This document shows positions 23,610 through 30,272 of a stretch of 64,000 nucleotides of DNA, one piece after another. Below the pieces are notes generated by a model. It saw only the letters and a list, made by a program, of their open reading frames with translations, made no database searches and was not told the DNA's origin. Made by a program: the position numbers and the translations under genes. This DNA comes from an uncultured Flavobacteriaceae bacterium (GTDB lineage Bacteria > Bacteroidota > Bacteroidia > Flavobacteriales > Flavobacteriaceae): contig CAVOQU010000012.1 of NCBI GenBank assembly GCA_963698455.1, positions 83,395 through 147,394 on the forward strand. Reading direction: 5' to 3'. The stretch's first letter is position 1; the number at the start of each line of letters is the position of its first letter.

Positions 23610-23629
23610 AACTCGTTAAAAACATAAAA

Positions 23630-23692
23630 ATGAAATCAATTTTAAATAATACTTGGTGGTGGAGCTTTCTAAACTTACGTTACGTGAAGTAA
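23630..23692 (+). CDS. trpL: trp operon leader peptide
   Basis: MKSILNNTWWWSFLNLRYVK*: three tandem TGG codons upstream of a terminator and trpE. Confidence 0.9.
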   Translation: MKSILNNTWWWSFLNLRYVK

Positions 23693-23723
23693 AATCCTAG
23701 TATATTTAAAACTTAAAATATCC

Positions 23724-23757
23724 AAAAGGCTTGTCGTTCACGACAAGCCTTTTTTTT
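23724..23757 (+). terminator. trp attenuator terminator
   Basis: AAAAGGCTTGTCG-ttca-CGACAAGCCTTTTTTTT. CGTGAA at the end of the leader can pair with TTCACG in this hairpin, a candidate antiterminator. Confidence 0.88.
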
Positions 23758-23764
23758 AGAGTAT

Positions 23765-24148
23765 TTTGTCATTTCCGCGAAGGCGGAAATCTTAAACTTA
23801 TTATAGATGTTTAATGAAGACACATATTATATTTACATTATGACAAATAAGAAAAATGGTGTAATTTATATTGGAATGACGGGAAATTTTAAGCAAAGAA
23901 TAAATCAACACAAGAAAAAATATAGCAGCGGATTTACAAATAAATACAATTTAGATTTATTGGTTTATTATGAAAAATTTCAGAATCCAAACGAAGCAAT
24001 TAAAAGAGAAAAACAAATAAAAAAATGGAATAGATCATGGAAAATCAATTTGATAAACGATTTTAACCCAGATTGGAACGATTTAAGTTATTTTTTTAAC
24101 ACTTAGGTAGAATAATAAAAAGATTTCCGCGTTCGCGGAAATGACAAA
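23765..24148 (+). mobile_element. REP-flanked GIY-YIG nuclease cassette (putative selfish element)
   Basis: 28-bp inverted repeats at 23765-23792 (TTTGTCATTTCCGCGAAGGCGGAAATCT) and 24121-24148 (AGATTTCCGCGTTCGCGGAAATGACAAA), one mismatch, enclosing a single GIY-YIG ORF. No target-site duplication visible. Confidence 0.7.
23807..24106 (+). CDS. Stand-alone GIY-YIG nuclease family protein
   Basis: YYIYIM (GIY), IYIGMT (YIG), conserved R in QRINQH, E in AIKREKQIK, and C-terminal WKINLI...NPDWNDL. Confidence 0.93.
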   Translation: MFNEDTYYIYIMTNKKNGVIYIGMTGNFKQRINQHKKKYSSGFTNKYNLDLLVYYEKFQNPNEAIKREKQIKKWNRSWKINLINDFNPDWNDLSYFFNT

Positions 24149-24158
24149 GACATTTTAA

Positions 24159-25565
24159 ATGACAAAATACAATTTATATACACATTACAAAAAAATTCTG
24201 GCAGATACTATTACACCTGTTAGTATTTATTTGAAAATTAGAGATAAATACCCAAATAGTATATTGCTTGAAAGTAGCGATTACCATGCCAATGATAATA
24301 CGTTTCTCATACATCTGTTTTAACCCTATTGCAACTATTAAGGTTGAAAACGAAACTATTTTTCAAACTTTTCCTGATGGAAGCGAAACTTCAAATCCAA
24401 TTACTAAAACTACCGATGTTTCCGAAGAAATTAATCAATTCACCAAACGTTTTAAAGTGAATTCTGAAGAAGAATTTCAAGTTTATAAATAATGGTATTT
24501 TTGGCTACATCGCTTATGATGCAGTAAGATATTTTGAAGATGTTGAAATTTCAAAAAAAGAAAATTCAGTAGCAATTCCAGATGTTAATTATGCTGTTTA
24601 TCAAAATATTATTGCCATAAATCATCATAAAAACGAAGCATATATTTTTGCGCATTGTTTTAATTCTGAACCTAATATTGAAGAAATAGATCATTTAATT
24701 AAAGTTAAAAACTTTGCGTCTTACAACTTTTCTTCAAATGGAGATATTAACTTCGAATTTAACTGATGACGAATACAAAAACCATGTAGAATTAGCAAAA
24801 AAACATTGTGGACGTGGTGATGTATTTCAATTGGTATTGTCAAAAAGTTTTTCACAGGAATTTAAAGGCGATGAATTTAATGTATATCGTGCTTTAAGAA
24901 GTATCAATCCGTCACCATATTTATTCTATTTCGATTATGGAAATTTTAAAATATTTGGAAGTTCTCCAGAAGCACAACTTGTTGTGAGCGATGGAAAAGC
25001 CGAAATACACCCAATTGCTGGAACTTTTAAACGAACAGGAAACGATACTCAAGATGCCGAATTAGCTCAACAATTGGTTGTAGACGATAAAGAAAATGCA
25101 GAACATGTTATGCTGGTAGATTTGGCAAGAAACGATTTAAGTAGACATGGCAGCGACGTTACTGTAGACACCTATCGTGAAGTTCAGTTTTTCTCACACG
25201 TTATCCATTTAGTTAGCAAAGTTACAGGACAGAAACACAAAGAAACCTCAACCATGCAGATGGTTGCCGACACTTTTCCTGCTGGAACTTTAAGTGGTGC
25301 GCCAAAGCACAGAGCGATGCAACTTATTGAAAAATACGAAAAAACGAGTCGTTCTTTTTACGGTGGCGCTATTGGGTTTATGGATTTTGATGGTAATTTT
25401 AATCACGCCATTATGATACGTACATTTTTAAGTAAAAACCACAAATTACATTGGCAAGCAGGTGCAGGAATAGTATCTAAATCAAGTCCGGAAAACGAAT
25501 TAGAAGAAGTATATAATAAATTAGGGGCCCTAACAAAAGCTATTGAATTAGCTGAAGAAATATAA
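24159..25565 (+). CDS. trpE: Anthranilate synthase component I (several frameshifts in the 5' half)
   Basis: Manual start MTKYNLYTHYKKILADTITPVSIYLKIRD; C-terminal INPSPY, GSSPE, PIAGT, EHVMLVDLARND, FPAGTLSGAPK. Confidence 0.93.
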
Positions 25566-25691
25566 TTCCTGAGTAGGCAGGAAATCCTCCAAGAGGAAAC
25601 AATAAACATAAGTCCATTAAAACATTCGTGTATTCGTGGCAAAGAAAAATTAAATTAATTAAATATAGATTCCTGCTTTCGCAGGAATGAC
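25566..25691. repeat. Inverted REP pair between trpE and trpG
   Basis: TTCCTGAGTAGGCAGGAAATCC directly after the trpE stop, and AGATTCCTGCTTTCGCAGGAATGAC at 25667-25691. Confidence 0.8.
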
Positions 25692-25697
25692 AAAAAA

Positions 25698-26264
25698 ATG
25701 ACGAAAGTACTAGTTATAGATAATTACGACAGTTTTACATACAATCTTGTACATTATTTAGAAGATTTAAATTGCGATGTTACCGTTGTTAGAAATGATA
25801 AACTAAGTTTAGATGACGTGGAGCCTTTTGATAAAATTGTATTATCTCCAGGACCTGGAATTCCAGATGAAGCTGGTTTATTAAAACCAATTATTAAAAG
25901 ATATGCACCTACAAAAAGTATTTTAGGGGTTTGTTTAGGACAACAAGCTATTGGTGAAGTTTTTGGAGGTTCTCTTATTAATTTGGAGGATGTATATCAT
26001 GGTGTTGCAACAAAAGTAACCATTTGTGTTAACGATGAATCCTTATTTAAAGGCATGGATAAAGAGATTGAAGTTGGTCGTTATCATTCTTGGGTGGTAA
26101 ATCCAAATTTACCGGATTGTTTAGAAGCCACTTCTTTTGATGCAAACGGACAAGTGATGTCGTTACGTCATAAAGTTTACGATGTAAAAGGTGTACAATA
26201 CCATCCAGAATCGGTATTAACACCAAACGGAAAACAGATATTAAAAAACTGGTTATCAAATTAA
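25698..26264 (+). CDS. trpG: Anthranilate synthase component II
   Basis: IDNYDSFTYN, SPGPG, GVCLG, QYHPES. Confidence 0.96.
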   Translation: MTKVLVIDNYDSFTYNLVHYLEDLNCDVTVVRNDKLSLDDVEPFDKIVLSPGPGIPDEAGLLKPIIKRYAPTKSILGVCLGQQAIGEVFGGSLINLEDVYHGVATKVTICVNDESLFKGMDKEIEVGRYHSWVVNPNLPDCLEATSFDANGQVMSLRHKVYDVKGVQYHPESVLTPNGKQILKNWLSN

Positions 26265-26330
26265 GCAAAAGACAAAAAATTAAAAATCAAAAGAAAACAC
26301 TTGTGATTTCGTGCCTTAAAAAATAAAAGA

Positions 26331-27324
26331 ATGAAAATTATATTAAACAGACTTATAAATCACGAAAGCATTTCCAGCGAAGAAGCAAAACAGGTTTTGG
26401 TAAATATCTCAAAAGGAGATTATAACCAAAGTCAAATTGCAGCTTTTCTAACCGTTTATCATGATGCGAAGTATCACTCTTGAAGAATTACGAGGTTTTC
26501 GAGATGCACTTTTAGAATTATGTATTCCTATCGATTTAAAAGATTTTAATGCGATTGATTTATGTGGAACTGGTGGTGATGGAAAAGACACCTTTAACAT
26601 TTCAACCTTAGCATCTTTTGTAACTGCTGGTGCAGGCGTAAATGTTGCAAAACATGGAAATTATGGTGTGTCATCTACTTGTGGATCTTCAAATGTTATG
26701 GAATTTTTAGGTATTAAATTTTCAAGTGATGAAGATTTTTTAAAACACTCTATTGATAAAGCTGGAATTTGTGTTTTACATGCACCTTTGTTTCATCCAG
26801 CTATGAAAAATGTGGCACCTATTCGTCGCGAATTAGGTGTAAAAACCTTTTTCAATATGTTAGGTCCTATGGTAAATCCATCATTTCCAAAAAATCAAAT
26901 GGTAGGTGTTTTTAATTTAGAATTGCTTCGTCTGTATGGATATCTTATATCAAAATACCGATAAAAATTATTCCATTGTTCATGCTTTAGATGGTTATGA
27001 TGAAATATCTTTAACAGGACCAACCAAAGTGATTTCAAATCATGCAGAAACCATGTTTTCACCAGAAGATTTAGGACTTTCAGAAATAACGCAAGAATCT
27101 ATTTTTGGAGGAAACACAGTAGAATCATCTGCCAAAATTTTTATGAATGTCATTCAAGGGAAAGGTACAGAAGCACAAAACAATGTGGTTTGTGCCAATG
27201 CTGGTTTAGCAATTGCAACCGCAAATCAAAATTGAGTCATAAGACAGGTTTTGAACTAGCAAAAGAATCTTTATTAAGTGGAAAAGCAAAACGAGTTTAG
27301 TAAATTAATGAATTAAGTAAATAA
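26331..27324 (+). CDS. trpD: Anthranilate phosphoribosyltransferase (frameshifted)
   Basis: DLCGTGGDG, FNIST, KHGN, TFFNMLGP, DGYDEIS. End coordinate approximate. Confidence 0.9.
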
Positions 27325-27354
27325 GTCAATACGAGAGAAACGACGAAGTAATCT
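27325..27354 (+). repeat. Single REP half between trpD and trpC
   Basis: GTCAATACGAGAGAAACGACGAAGTAATCT resembles the left arms at 28481 and 28902; it starts directly after a TAA. Confidence 0.7.
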
Positions 27355-27393
27355 CTAAAGAATTAGAGCTAAAATGCAATGATTCAAGAAAAA

Positions 27394-28170
27394 ATGAATA
27401 TACTAGACAAATAGTAGCGATAAACGCATTGAAGTCGATTTAAGAAAATCGTTAATTCCTGTTAAACAATTGGAACAATCAGTTTTATTTGAAAGACAAA
27501 CCATTTCATTAGCAAATAAATTACGATCAATAGTCAAACAGGAATTATCGCAGAACATAAACGTAGGTCACCTTCAAAATCTGTTATCAATCAAAACTTA
27601 AATGTATTTGATGTCGCAAAAGGCTATGAAGATGCAGGTGTTTGTGGGATGTCTGTTTTAACCGATGGAAAATATTTTGGTGGTTCTTTAGACGATTTAT
27701 TAACTGCACAGAGCAAGTTGTAATTTACCACTTATTACGTAAAGAATTTATTATTGACGAATACCAATTATTAGAAGCTAAAGCCTATGGTGCCGATGTT
27801 ATTTTACTAATTGCAGCTATTTTAACCAGAGAAGAAATCAAACAGTTTTCAGAATTTGCAAAAAGCTTAAATTTGGATGTGTTATTAGAAGTTCATAATG
27901 AAGAAGAATTACATAAATCCATCATGCCAAGTTTAGATATGTTTGGTGTAAACAATCGAAATTTAAAAACCTTTGACGTCAGTTTAGAAACCAGTAAAAG
28001 ACTTAAGTAAACTAATTCCAAACGATTTTGTAAAAGTATCAGAAAGTGGTATTAGTACTATTGAAGCCATTAAAGAATTACAACCTTATGGATATCAAGG
28101 TTTTTTAATTGGTGAAAATTTTATGAAAACCGATAATGCAGGTGAAAGTGCAAAACAATTTATATAATAG
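27394..28170 (+). CDS. trpC: Indole-3-glycerol phosphate synthase (frameshifted)
   Basis: IIAEHKRRSPSK read manually; LLRKEFIIDEYQ, EVHNEEEL, GVNNRNLKTF, VSESGI. End approximate. Confidence 0.88.
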
Positions 28171-28189
28171 AACTATTACGAAGAGAACA

Positions 28190-28932
28190 TGAAACTATAA
28201 AGAAGATTCTGCTGGCAATGCAAAATATCAAATTGGGATGAAATATCAGACATGCAAGTTGCAGCCTTGCAACCAGACTATCTTGGTTTTATATTTTATG
28301 AAAAATCTGCAAGAAACTTTGATTCTAAAAACATTCCTAAATTACCTAAATCCATCAAAAAAGTAGGTGTTTTTGTTGATGCAGATTTAGAATGTTGTTA
28401 TTGAAAAAATAAAAACACATAATTTACAGGCAGTTCAATTGCATGGTGATGAATCTCCTGAATATTGTTTAAAATTAAAACGTCATTACGAGGCGAGAAA
28501 CAACGAAGTAATCTCATCAAAAGAAGCAGATTGCTTCGACTTTGAAAAAAAGTCTCGCAATGACGATAAACTAGAAATCATCAAAGTATTTTCCATCAAA
28601 GACGAATTCAATTTTGATGTTTTGAAACCTTATGAAGATGTTTGCGATTACTTTTTATTTGACACCAAAGGAAAATTACCAGGAGGCAATGGTTACACTT
28701 TCGATTGGAATGTTTTAAACAATTATCCATCAACAAAACCTTTCTTTTTAAGTGGTGGAATTGGATTAGAAGAATTAGAAAACTTAAAAAATTTAAACAA
28801 AGTAAGGCTTCAAAATATTGTTATGCCATCGATGTGAATAGCAAATTTGAAATAGAAGCAGGATTAAAAAATATAGAATTATTACAAAAATTTAAAGACA
28901 CTGTCATTACGAAAGAGAAACGACTGAAGTAA
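28190..28932 (+). CDS. trpF: Phosphoribosylanthranilate isomerase (frameshifted, with in-frame REP insertion)
   Basis: PDYLGFIFY, VGVFV, QLHGDES, FLFDTKG...GGNG..FDW, FFLSGGIG, IDVNSKFE. The 5' end is garbled, so the start is approximate. Confidence 0.85.
28481..28565. repeat. CGTC-tagged REP dimer inside trpF
   Basis: Outer arms CGTCATTACGAG / CTCGCAATGACG and inner arms CGAAGTAATCT / AGATTGCTTCG. Confidence 0.88.
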
Positions 28933-28987
28933 TCTCATAATTTGAAATTTAAAACAAACAGATTGCTTCACTGCGTTCGCAATGACG
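28902..28987. repeat. REP dimer overlapping the trpF 3' end
   Basis: TGTCATTACGAA...TGAAGTAATCT / AGATTGCTTCA...TTCGCAATGACG. Confidence 0.88.
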
Positions 28988-29026
28988 ATAGTATAAAATC
29001 AAAAAGACTCTTAAATGACAAAAATT

Positions 29027-30211
29027 ATGAAATTACAACGTTAACGAAAAAGGTTATTATGGCGAATTTGGAGGTGCATATATTCCAGAAATGCTATATC
29101 CAAATGTGGAAGAATTACGCCAAAATTATTTAAAAATAATGGCAGAACCCGACTTTAAAAAAGAGTTCGACCAACTTTTAAAAGATTATGTAGGACGTCC
29201 TTCTCCACTCTATTTTGCAAAACGACTTTCTAGAAAAATACAACACCAAAATATATTTAAAGCGTGAAGATTTAAATCATACTGGTGCACATAAAATCAA
29301 TAATACCATCGGGCAGATTCTCATGGCAAAACGTTTGGGTAAAACCCGAATTATTGCCGAAACTGGAGCAGGTCAACATGGTGTTGCCACTGCTACCGTT
29401 TGTGCTTTAATGGGACTGGAGTGTATTGTTTACATGGGTGAAATTGATATTGCACGTCAAGCACCAAACGTGGCTCGTATGAAAATGTTAGGAGCTACGG
29501 TTGTTCCTGCATTATCAGGAAGTCGAACTCTAAAAGATGCCACTAATGAAGCCATTCGCGATTGGATTAACAATCCTGTTGACACGCATTACATTATTGG
29601 TTCTGCTATTGGTCCGCACCCCTATCCAGATATGGTGACGCGGTTTCAATCGGTCATTTCCGAAGAAATAAAATGGCAATTAAAAGAACAAGAAGGTCGT
29701 GAAAATCCTGATTATGTGGTGGCTTGTATTGGTGGTGGTAGTAATGCCGCAGGTACATATTATCACTTTTTACACGAAGAAGATGTTAACATTATTGCTG
29801 TTGAAGCCGCTGGTTTAGGCATCGATTCTGGTGAAAGTGCTGCCACTTCAGTATTAGGAAAAGAAGGTATTATTCATGGTTGCAAAACCTTGTTAATGCA
29901 AACTAACGATGGGCAAATTACAGAACCCTACTCCATTTCCGCTGGATTAGATTATCCTGGTGTTGGTCCAATGCATGCTCATTTATCAAAAACAGGTCGT
30001 GCTGAATTTATGTCTATTACAGATGATGATGCTATGGAAGCTGGTTTAGAACTCTCAAAATTAGAAGGTATTATTCCAGCTATTGAAACATCACATGCGC
30101 TTGCTATTTTCTAACACAAAATCTTTAAACCAGACGATGTGGTGGTGGTAAGTCTTATCTGGTCGTGGAGATAAGGATTTAGACACGTATATTAATTATT
30201 TTAAATTATAA
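29027..30211 (+). CDS. trpB: Tryptophan synthase beta chain (frameshifted)
   Basis: [52 protein letters not shown]. Confidence 0.95.
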
Positions 30212-30272
30212 CGTCATTCAGAACAAAGTGAAGGAATCTCGCTATACCGATTGCTTCGTTCCTCGCAATGAC
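30212..30272. repeat. REP dimer between trpB and trpA
   Basis: CGTCATTCAGAACAAAGTGAAGGAATCT directly after the trpB TAA, then GATTGCTTCGTTCCTCGCAATGAC. Confidence 0.82.

What the first reader, a model, noticed from the sequence alone, without database searches (positions are those of the whole stretch)
23765..24148. GIY-YIG nuclease flanked by inverted GTCA-tagged REP hairpins: candidate GIY-YIG/REP selfish system
Seen: a lone 99-aa GIY-YIG gene with the expected Y, R and E residues, tightly bracketed (14 nt each side) by 28-bp inverted repeats with one mismatch. Each repeat is GTCA tag + 7-bp stem TTTCCGC/GCGGAAA + GAAN loop + TCT. No target-site duplication is visible. The cassette interrupts the attenuator-trpE junction, and related hairpins occur elsewhere in the window without the gene. 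Established: GTAG-type REPs flank and are processed by HUH RAYT transposases, whereas CGTC/GTCA-type REPs have been described as lacking a dedicated transposase. Inference: this small GIY-YIG subfamily (C-terminal NPxWxDL) may be the enzyme that nicks and spreads these REPs, a RAYT/REPIN analogue built on a different nuclease fold.
Basis: partly seen in the sequence, partly recalled or inferred. Interest (0 to 1): 0.92.

Follow-up and report, generated by a model that had tools for sequence, protein, structure and literature searches.

The report
Ssn hairpin-nuclease cassette in trp operon

Summary
A 99-aa single-domain GIY-YIG gene (23807-24106) is bracketed 12-13 nt away by inverted 28-29-nt repeats. 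Each repeat is TGTC + 8-bp stem + GAAG/GAAC loop + C. The cassette lies between the Bacteroid-trp leader terminator and trpE.

The interpretation matches a published system. Chenal et al. 2025 (PMC11893778) described Ssn nucleases: about 94-aa GIY-YIG proteins flanked by NTS/SRM hairpins (CGTCATTCCCGCGMAVGCGGGAATCYRG). These enzymes cut single-stranded DNA a few nucleotides 5' of the hairpin. The authors had already raised the IS/RAYT-REP analogy.

Findings specific to this genome:
- All four paralogues whose flanks were read carry tagged inverted repeats.
- 34 of 125 tagged REP arms lie within 5 kb of a paralogue, against 1.7 expected.
- The closest homologues (63-91% identity) sit inside trp operons, in five named genera besides this one.
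- The terminator-plus-hairpin junction occurs in 8 of 302 sampled genera.
- Among 14 genomes of this genus, two carry the full cassette, one keeps only the right hairpin and 11 are empty.
- The gene is under purifying selection (dN/dS 0.15).
- This copy's own stem variant has no other tagged copies in the genome.

Active movement is not shown. Verdict: a new member of a known kind, of modest interest.

The parts
23610..23735 (+). Bacteroid-trp leader RNA (context). It contains the leader peptide ORF 23630-23692, MKSILNNTWWWSFLNLRYVK.
   Evidence: Rfam RF01692, 55 bits against a gathering score of 49. Sequence read.
23724..23759 (+). Attenuator terminator hairpin (13-bp stem) followed by a T run. 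It lies immediately upstream of the cassette.
   Evidence: I4.: -13.9 kcal/mol, z -8.1. Nearly identical in 14 congeners.
23767..23794 (+). Left SRM/REP hairpin, TGTC ATTTCCGC GAAG GCGGAAAT C TTA. The tag points away from the gene.
   Evidence: It keeps the GTC 5' of the palindrome and the C directly 3' of it, the two features that Chenal et al. found critical for cutting and binding.
23807..24106 (+). ssn-like gene: a 99-aa single-domain GIY-YIG nuclease.
   Evidence: Pfam PF01541 E=3.9e-19. Catalytic Y10/Y21/R31/E68 are invariant. It is 50-62% identical to homologues from other phyla and other flavobacteria, and the NPxWxDL tail is conserved in the cross-phylum set. dN/dS is 0.15 against the G003 orthologue.
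24119..24146 (-). Right SRM/REP hairpin, TGTC ATTTCCGC GAAC GCGGAAAT C TTT on the minus strand. The tag points away from the gene.
24159..25565 (+). trpE (context). The apparent frameshifts are assembly errors.
   Evidence: rpoB of the same assembly is also split by frameshifts.
25563..25587 (+). Degenerate hairpin arm (TAATTCCTGAGTAGGCAGGAAATCC) that begins in the trpE stop codon.
25665..25692 (-). Solo SRM hairpin, TGTC ATTCCTGC GAAA GCAGGAAT C TA, between trpE and trpG. Its stem variant is the one that flanks the paralogue on contig C6.
27325..30272 (.). Seven further GTC-tagged REP arms of the ATT(G/A)CGAG...GAAG(C/T)AAT family and related forms inside the trp operon: 27325, 28482/28564, 28903/28986, 30213/30272.
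   Evidence: Counted as family F2.

Best explanation
The locus is an Ssn-type cassette: a single-domain GIY-YIG nuclease gene enclosed by two inverted copies of its cognate hairpin repeat. That repeat is an SRM, a TGTC-tagged member of the CGTC REP superfamily.

By homology to the four Ssn enzymes tested in vitro, I infer the following. The protein binds the hairpin only when the DNA is single-stranded and only on the tag-bearing strand. It reads the stem sequence and the C just 3' of the palindrome. It then hydrolyses the strand a few nucleotides 5' of the GTC tag.

Both tags point outward. The predicted cuts therefore fall just outside the cassette, on the top strand at the left end and on the bottom strand at the right end.

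In this lineage the cassette is a long-term resident of the spacer between the trp attenuator and trpE. It is co-oriented with the operon and has no terminator of its own on the sense strand, so it is probably transcribed by attenuator read-through.

It is kept by purifying selection, yet it has been deleted in most species of the genus. Its likely cellular role is cleavage of SRM-bearing single-stranded DNA, for example incoming transforming or conjugative DNA, or replication and repair intermediates. A possible second, selfish role in generating or maintaining the SRM copies that cluster around ssn genes is not shown.
For: Shown here:
- GIY-YIG domain with intact catalytic residues.
- Inverted, tag-outward hairpins that fold as single-stranded DNA.
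- All four paralogues whose flanks were read carry GTC(A)-tagged inverted repeats, with compensatory stem changes between copies.
- In 80 homologous loci from many phyla, a strict tag-plus-hairpin detector hits 26 on at least one side and 15 on both. Background is 0.9% of control windows. A gene-centred inverted-repeat score of 14 or more occurs in 27/80 loci against 1/153 shifted controls.
- Hairpin type tracks protein clade. ATTTCCGC/ATTTCGAC stems go with the 63-91% identity clade and ATTCCTGC stems with the roughly 55% clade.
- 34 of 125 tagged arms lie within 5 kb of a paralogue, against 1.7 expected.
- dN/dS is 0.15.
- The hairpin stems co-vary across genera: CCGC/GCGG, CGAC/GTCG, CCAC/GTGG.

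From the literature:
- Ssn enzymes cut single-stranded DNA 5' of the NTS. They do not cut double-stranded DNA, RNA or the reverse strand.
- The GTC and the 3' C are critical.
- Catalytic Y6/Y17/E64 of N. meningitidis SsnA have the same spacing as Y10/Y21/E68 here (PMC11893778).
- A homologue 56% identical to this protein (L085) is flanked on both sides by the canonical NTS.
Against: - No biochemistry exists for this protein or for any Bacteroidota homologue.
- Homology to N. meningitidis SsnA and the CDD cd10448 assignment could not be tested directly.
- The two hairpins miss the published degenerate SRM search string by 2 and 1 positions.
- The exact ATTTCCGC stem variant has no other tagged copy in the genome, so this particular nuclease has no evident dispersed substrate beyond its own flanks.
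- Transcription from the trp promoter is inferred from geometry only.
- In the more distant trp-resident orthologues the GTC tag has decayed to GAA or AGA. By the published mutagenesis this should abolish cutting at those flanks.
Confidence: 0.8

Rival explanations
1. The cassette is an autonomous mobile element. The GIY-YIG protein acts as its transposase or excisase and also mobilises the gene-less hairpins, in a RAYT/REPIN-like or IS200/IS605-like single-strand mechanism.
For: - The hairpin-gene-hairpin layout resembles an insertion sequence.
- Genomes carry 1-9 copies each, some with premature stops.
- The attenuator-trpE site is polymorphic in the genus: full, solo hairpin or empty.
- A sister-clade cassette of 391 nt, hairpin to hairpin, is present in G003. 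At the same slot in the close relative G011 there are 149 nt of unrelated repeats.
- Proteins over 85% identical sit in non-homologous flanks.
- Arms cluster around ssn genes.
- The G011 deletion has its left breakpoint 3-4 nt 5' of the tag, near the position where Ssn enzymes cut.
- Synonymous divergence of ssn between G000 and G003 (dS 0.43) is lower than that of trpE (0.96) and trpG (0.87).
Against: - The genome holds no near-identical copies; paralogues are at most 58% identical.
- No target-site duplication is visible.
- The closest subclade occupies the same trp-operon site in several genera, and its identity tracks TrpE identity.
- GIY-YIG enzymes hydrolyse DNA and have no known strand-transfer chemistry (established knowledge).
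- The polymorphism seen at this site is explained by deletions: G011 keeps the stop codon and 3' spacer.
- Nucleotide identity shows no sharp island around the cassette.
Confidence: 0.15
2. The nuclease and the hairpins are functionally unrelated. REPs simply accumulate in intergenic spacers and happen to flank a housekeeping YhbQ-like GIY-YIG gene. In this view they act as RNA stabilisers or terminators.
For: - REP arms also fill other spacers of the trp operon.
- The right hairpin read on the minus strand looks like an intrinsic terminator.
- The nearest solved structures are UPF0213 proteins of unknown function.
Against: - The tag-outward inverted arrangement recurs at all four paralogues whose flanks were read and across phyla, far above background.
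- Hairpin type co-varies with protein clade.
- Direct, sequence-specific binding and cutting have been published for four homologues.
- The matches to UPF0213 structures are weak (E=4e-5).
Confidence: 0.03
3. The cassette has been co-opted for a tryptophan-linked role. One version is a nuclease expressed only under Trp starvation. Another is that the hairpins and protein modulate trp-operon expression or mRNA fate.
For: - The position downstream of the attenuator and co-oriented with trpE is conserved in at least eight genera.
- One relative sits between trpG and trpD.
- The gene is under purifying selection.
- The hairpin structure is retained even where the cutting tag has decayed.
- REP arms are unusually dense in the operon.
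Against: - 11 of the 14 genomes of this genus lack the cassette altogether and one keeps only a hairpin, yet all 13 other than G000 keep an intact trpE and the leader.
- Only 8 of 401 sampled family genomes have the junction.
- Ssn enzymes do not bind RNA.
- No mechanistic link between a single-strand DNase and tryptophan supply is known.
Confidence: 0.05

Closest known systems
Ssn nucleases with NTS/SRM repeats (SsnA of Neisseria meningitidis, CDD cd10448; Chenal et al., Nat Commun 2025, PMC11893778)
   Same: Both are single-domain GIY-YIG proteins of about 94-99 aa, with the same spacing of the catalytic Tyr, Tyr and Glu. Both genes are enclosed by inverted hairpin repeats. The repeat has a (C/T)GTC tag, an 8-bp stem starting AT, a GAAG-type loop and a C after the palindrome. 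It matches the NTS consensus at 24 of 28 positions, and one stem pair is changed on both sides. Further copies are scattered in the genome and cluster near the gene.
   Different: The host is a Flavobacteriaceae bacterium; the paper's main text does not mention Bacteroidota. The hairpins fall just outside the published degenerate SRM search string. This copy is embedded in a trp operon behind the attenuator. Its exact stem variant is not amplified. Activity is untested.
CGTC/TGTC-tagged REP superfamily (Di Nocera, De Gregorio and Rocco 2013, PMC3733652), including Neisseria dRS3
   Same: The TGTC tag, the 8-bp stem beginning AT, the 4-nt loop, the short tail and the head-to-head dimers all fit their CGTC-1 description. 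They listed Bacteroidetes, including Gramella forsetii, among the hosts.
   Different: That paper found no associated enzyme. Here, and in Chenal 2025, a GIY-YIG gene sits between the arms.
REPtrons: RAYT (Y1/HUH, IS200/IS605-related) genes flanked by GTAG-tagged REPs, and REPIN doublets
   Same: The architecture is the same: an enzyme gene between inverted copies of the repeat it recognises as a single-stranded hairpin. Gene-less singlets and doublets are scattered in the genome.
   Different: The fold and chemistry differ: a hydrolytic GIY-YIG nuclease rather than a covalent-tyrosine HUH enzyme. The tag differs (GTC rather than GTAG). No transposition activity has been shown.
UPF0213 / YhbQ-type stand-alone GIY-YIG proteins (PDB 1ywl, 1zg2)
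   Same: They have the same fold and size, and they are the closest solved structures by sequence.
   Different: Similarity is weak (E=4e-5 and 7e-3). They lack the NPxWxDL tail. In this genome the UPF0213-like paralogues (C17, C7) form a separate group at only 39-40% identity.

Membership tests
Ssn nuclease family (Chenal 2025) | Single-domain GIY-YIG protein of about 90-100 aa with no extra DNA-binding domain | tested here: met
   The protein is 99 aa. Pfam GIY-YIG covers residues 7-81 and no other domain is found.
Ssn nuclease family (Chenal 2025) | Catalytic Tyr, Tyr and Glu (Y6, Y17, E64 in N. meningitidis SsnA) | tested here: met
   Y10, Y21 and E68 are invariant in alignment A2. Their spacing (11 and 47 residues) equals that of the residues mutated in the paper.
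Ssn nuclease family (Chenal 2025) | Sequence homology to N. meningitidis SsnA (E<1e-10), or a CDD cd10448 hit | not testable with these tools
   No CDD library and no Neisseria SsnA sequence were available, and the paper's supplements are not held. Indirect support: 56% identity to a homologue (L085) flanked on both sides by the canonical NTS, and 54-57% identity to Rickettsiales homologues.
Ssn nuclease family (Chenal 2025) | Gene flanked on both sides by hairpin repeats (NTS-ssn-NTS) | tested here: met
   Inverted hairpins lie at 23767-23794 and 24119-24146.
Ssn nuclease family (Chenal 2025) | Repeats match the published SRM search string HGTCWYN(0-2)YYVSBRHN(0-5)WNVSBRGN(0-2)RNCYNB | tested here: not met
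   The left arm needs 2 substitutions and the right arm 1. Exact hits across the genome number 4, which equals the shuffled expectation. The misses come from one stem pair changed on both sides and from the tail. The GTC tag and the 3' C are intact.
Ssn nuclease family (Chenal 2025) | Strand-specific cleavage of single-stranded DNA next to the hairpin | not testable with these tools
   This needs purified protein.
CGTC-tagged REP superfamily (Di Nocera 2013) | (C/T)GTC tag, 8-9-bp stem starting AT, 4-5-nt loop, short tail, head-to-head dimers, many copies | tested here: met
   The genome has 26 arms of this form. 25 of the 26 carry TGTC and 25 are followed by C; shuffled genomes give 0-5. A gene-less head-to-head doublet lies at C2:150293/150367.
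REPtron / RAYT system | HUH/Y1 tyrosine transposase and GTAG-tagged REPs | tested here: not met
   The enzyme is GIY-YIG and the tag is GTC.
Autonomous transposable element | Target-site duplication, or near-identical copies at several sites in one genome | tested here: not met
   No duplication beyond a low-complexity ATTTT is seen. The paralogues in the genome are at most 58% identical.
Autonomous transposable element | Presence/absence polymorphism with element-sized boundaries between close relatives | tested here: inconclusive
   The trp site occurs in full, solo-hairpin and empty states. A sister cassette present in G003 is replaced by other repeats in G011. Both cases are compatible with deletion or replacement as well as with insertion.
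GIY-YIG homing endonucleases (I-TevI type) | Nuclease domain joined to a DNA-binding domain, located in an intron or free-standing in phage | tested here: not met
   NCBIfam TIGR01453 scores 23 bits against a cut-off of 56, and there is no C-terminal DNA-binding domain.

The most novel reading that the evidence does not exclude
Ssn cassettes are mobile. They repeatedly reach, or are repeatedly retained at, the spacer between the trp attenuator and trpE in Flavobacteriaceae. The nuclease is the enzyme that seeds the gene-less GTC-tagged hairpins that pile up around it; here there are 11 arms in the 6.5-kb trp operon. That would make GIY-YIG a second, independent enzyme class behind REP dispersal. 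It would also give a natural system, with full, solo-hairpin and empty alleles in one genus, in which to test the idea.
Probability: 0.2. Interest if true: 0.75.

Novelty: new member of a known kind. Interest (0 to 1): 0.3.

Why it matters
The link is now published, so the headline claim is not new.

This locus adds three smaller things:

- **A gap in the published search string.** Flavobacterial Ssn hairpins escape the published SRM search string. Surveys based on that string will undercount the system in Bacteroidota.
- **A defined and partly conserved location.** One Ssn subclade has lived behind a tryptophan attenuator in several genera. This gives a regulated expression context that can be tested.
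- **A natural allelic series.** The genus contains full, half-deleted and empty alleles of the same site, and the hairpins cluster strongly around ssn genes. This is the kind of material needed to test whether Ssn enzymes only restrict single-stranded DNA or also generate and move their repeats.

Tried and rejected
- **The 14-nt exact inverted match** between the left flank (23761-23774) and the trpE start (24157-24170), seen I5. I considered it as an inverted target duplication and rejected it because it is not conserved in the orthologous G003 cassette.
- **trpE and trpD as pseudogenes caused by the insertion.** Rejected, because rpoB of the same assembly is also frameshifted and G003 has an intact trpE behind the same cassette.
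- **Target-site duplication inferred from the G010-like empty spacer** (CTATTTT^AAATG). Only a 5-nt ATTTT repeat is present, which is low-complexity, and the insertion is old. This is not convincing.
- **A recombination tract around the cassette.** Sliding-window identity between G000 and G003 shows no sharp island, although ssn dS (0.43) is lower than trpE or trpG dS. The question is left open.
- **Literature searches** for GIY-YIG together with REP or RAYT terms found nothing relevant.
No read-level test of excision, transcription or the frameshifts was possible.
- **Supplements of the Ssn paper** are not held, so no N. meningitidis SsnA sequence was available for direct comparison.
- **A denominator search** for the trp terminator alone across the family was not run. 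The prevalence figure of 8/401 genomes is therefore relative to all sampled genomes.

Full report
**1. What is there.**
The window is contig C12:83395-147394 of a 3.7-Mb, 33% G+C, 17-contig assembly of a Flavobacteriaceae bacterium. Rfam finds one family in the window, the Bacteroid-trp leader (RF01692) at 23610-23735. It contains a leader peptide with three consecutive Trp codons (23630-23692) and a 13-bp terminator hairpin at 23724-23753.

The features follow in this order:
- left hairpin repeat, 23767-23794;
- a 99-aa ORF, 23807-24106;
- right hairpin repeat, 24119-24146;
- the trpE start, 24159.

The ORF is a single GIY-YIG domain (Pfam PF01541, E=3.9e-19). Its invariant residues are Y10, Y21, G23, R31 and E68.

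Each repeat reads TGTC + ATTTCCGC + GAAG (or GAAC) + GCGGAAAT + C, and both tags point away from the gene. The 29-nt core has one mismatch, in the loop. The hairpins fold as single-stranded DNA at -7 to -8 kcal/mol, z about -3.7.

**2. It is part of a repeat system in this genome.**
- tblastn finds three further small GIY-YIG paralogues at 39-58% identity, and a whole-genome search adds a fifth, weaker copy on C7.
- All four whose flanks I read are bracketed by GTC(A)-tagged inverted repeats.
- The C6 copy is bracketed by TGTC-ATTCCTGC-GAAG-GCAGGAAT, the same hairpin with stem pairs changed on both sides.
- The C2 copy is bracketed by the CGTC-ATTGCGAG...GCAAT-CTG family.
- The C17 copy is bracketed by a TGTCACTTCGAG family.

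A census finds 26 arms of the 8-bp-stem, 4-nt-loop form. Of these, 25 carry TGTC and 25 are followed by C; shuffled genomes give 0-5. With the other two families the total is 125 arms. Of these, 34 lie within 5 kb of one of the five paralogues, where 1.7 are expected.

The trp operon holds 11 arms between 23.7 and 30.3 kb. This confirms an earlier unchecked note of this scan (e1-5233845). The exact ATTTCCGC stem variant occurs as a tagged arm only at the two positions flanking this gene.

**3. It is a known kind.**
Di Nocera et al. 2013 (PMC3733652) defined CGTC/TGTC-tagged REPs. These have 8-9-bp stems beginning AT and 4-5-nt loops, and they form head-to-head dimers. Bacteroidetes were among the hosts. 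The authors concluded that these repeats lack a dedicated enzyme.

The paper reports the following:
- The 94-aa GIY-YIG protein SsnA of Neisseria meningitidis (CDD cd10448) and thousands of homologues are encoded by genes flanked by NTS/SRM hairpins. The NTS is CGTCATTCCCGCGMAVGCGGGAATCYRG.
- 71% of homologues have at least one SRM nearby and 42% have one on both sides.
- Four purified homologues bind the hairpin only as single-stranded DNA and only on one strand. They cut a few nucleotides upstream of it.
- The three bases 5' of the palindrome matter most for cutting, and the C just after it matters most for binding.
- SsnA lowers transformation by NTS-bearing DNA.
- The Discussion notes that NTS-ssnA-NTS looks like an insertion sequence and compares it with RAYT/REP systems.

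The hairpin here matches the NTS at 24 of 28 positions. The tag has C changed to T, one stem pair is changed on both sides, and the tail differs. The hairpin keeps both the GTC and the 3' C. The catalytic residues here have the same spacing as Y6/Y17/E64 of SsnA.

**4. Independent check of the association.**
The search for related loci returned 595 relatives. The best 80 come from Flavobacteriaceae, Candidate Phyla Radiation (CPR) lineages, Rickettsiales, Colwellia, Deltaproteobacteria, KSB1, Ignavibacteria, Endomicrobia and Helicobacteraceae, at 50-77% identity. The NPxWxDL tail is conserved across these phyla.

| Test on the 80 loci | Result | Control |
|---|---|---|
| Strict detector (GTC plus a perfect hairpin of at least 7 bp, tag outward, within 160 nt), at least one side | 26 loci | 0.9% of control windows |
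| Same detector, both sides | 15 loci | not applicable |
| Gene-centred inverted-repeat score of 14 or more | 27/80 | 1/153 shifted controls |
| Exact match to the published SRM string | 6/80 | not applicable |

The published string misses the two hairpins here by 2 and 1 positions. Its exact hits in this genome equal chance. The string therefore undercounts flavobacterial variants.

One of the string-positive loci, L085, has the canonical NTS on both sides, and its protein is 56% identical to this one. I could not test cd10448 membership or compare with the Neisseria sequence directly.

**5. A trp-operon subclade.**
Every homologue with at least 63% identity lies between the Bacteroid-trp leader terminator and trpE. 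These are Hyunsoonleella pacifica, Flavivirga sp. (gene disrupted), Flagellimonas nanhaiensis, an Aggregatimonas MAG and two other MAGs. The Salegentibacter flavus copy (60% identity) lies between trpG and trpD.

Protein identity tracks TrpE identity in these comparisons:

| Measure | G003 | Hyunsoonleella | MAG (L053) | Flagellimonas | Aggregatimonas | MAG (L059) |
|---|---|---|---|---|---|---|
| Ssn identity to this protein (%) | 91 | 77 | 70 | 65 | 66 | 63 |
| TrpE identity (%) | 94 | 78 | 81 | 78 | 76 | 77 |

The flanking hairpins persist with co-varying stems. In the more distant genera the GTC tag has decayed. A pattern joining the terminator to the left hairpin hits 8 of 401 sampled family genomes, each in a different genus. 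An earlier agent note (e1-3742075) reported the same arrangement in another genome.

**6. Gain and loss within the genus.**
- G003 carries the orthologous cassette at the same site (91% protein identity, about 90% nucleotide identity), with an intact 467-aa trpE.
- G011 is the sister of G003 (97.5% identical in rpoB). It keeps only the right hairpin plus the stop codon and 3' spacer of the gene. This is a deletion of the left hairpin and the ORF, and its left breakpoint lies 3-4 nt 5' of the tag.
- G001 and ten other congeners have no cassette.
- On the rpoB tree the occupied genomes fall in one clade, ((G000,G001),(G003,G011)).
- dN/dS for ssn between G000 and G003 is 0.15.
- ssn dS (0.43) is lower than trpE dS (0.96) or trpG dS (0.87). 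Sliding-window identity shows no sharp island around the cassette.
- At a second site, a sister-clade cassette in G003 (391 nt, hairpin to hairpin) is replaced in G011 by 149 nt of unrelated repeats.

These data show turnover of whole cassettes. They do not distinguish insertion from deletion or replacement. The genome holds no near-identical copies and no target-site duplication is visible.

**7. Mechanism.**
- *Shown here:* the anatomy, the conservation, the clustering of arms around ssn genes, and purifying selection.
- *Taken from the literature on homologues:* hairpin-specific, strand-specific cutting of single-stranded DNA 5' of the tag.
- *Inferred:* with the tags pointing outward, the cuts would fall just outside the cassette on opposite strands. 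The gene is probably expressed by read-through of the trp attenuator, because it is co-oriented with the operon and has no sense-strand terminator. Its role is probably restriction or processing of SRM-bearing single-stranded DNA. Dispersal of the repeats is possible but unproven.

**8. Verdict.**
This locus is a new member of a known kind. It comes with a conserved trp-operon location, hairpin variants that escape the published motif, and a natural series of alleles. Interest is modest.

Noticed in passing
window 24159-25565 (trpE), 26331-27235 (trpD); G000:C12:32155-35947 (rpoB): trpE, trpD and the essential rpoB are all broken by frameshifts in this assembly. G003 has intact versions. This looks like indel error in the assembly (93.6% completeness), not gene decay.
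   Followed up: partly
window 23765-30272: Eleven GTC-tagged REP arms of at least two families lie inside the 6.5-kb trp operon, several directly after stop codons. None with a hairpin was seen in the rest of the window.
   Followed up: yes
window 28482-28564: A head-to-head REP dimer (CGTCATTACGAGG... / ...CTCGCAATGACG) lies in what another first-reader note calls the trpF coding region, possibly in frame. I saw the dimer but did not check the frame.
   Followed up: no
G000 C2:150293-150367 (outside the window): A gene-less head-to-head doublet of TGTC-ATTCCCGC-GAAG-GCGGGAAT, with arms 74 nt apart. It carries the exact Neisseria NTS core and resembles a REPIN.
   Followed up: no
G000 C2:257097-261778 and C17:36302-37123, C17:143204-147953: Dense tandem arrays of REP arms with periods of about 125 nt lie next to the C2 and C17 GIY-YIG paralogues. 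One further array of 10 arms has no nuclease gene nearby.
   Followed up: partly
window 23761-23774 vs 24157-24170: A 14-nt exact inverted match links the left flank of the cassette and the trpE start codon region. It is not conserved in the orthologous G003 locus, so it is probably chance or a remnant of another arm.
   Followed up: yes
L054 (Flavivirga sp. 57AJ16): The trp-resident ssn gene there is interrupted after about 13 codons by an insert of about 200 nt that has its own inverted repeat (AAGTGGTTTAAACTTTTT...). This is a second small element nested in the cassette.
   Followed up: no
L027 (G003 C1:1662400-1662840) vs L008 (G011 C23:274238-274388): The same intergenic slot holds an Ssn cassette in one species and CCCTCTCC-AAAG-GAGAGGG-type palindromes in its close relative. 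The slot is a hot spot for exchange of different repeat families.
   Followed up: partly
window 23807-24106 vs flanking trpE/trpG: Synonymous divergence between G000 and G003 is about half as large in ssn (0.43) as in trpE (0.96) or trpG (0.87). The cause could be constraint on the DNA, noise from only 98 codons, or a more recent shared history of the cassette.
   Followed up: partly
genome-wide, and loci L052-L131: The published degenerate SRM search string finds only chance-level hits in this genome and matches 6 of 80 homologous loci. Yet most loci carry obvious tagged hairpins. The string is too narrow for AT-rich Bacteroidota variants.
   Followed up: yes
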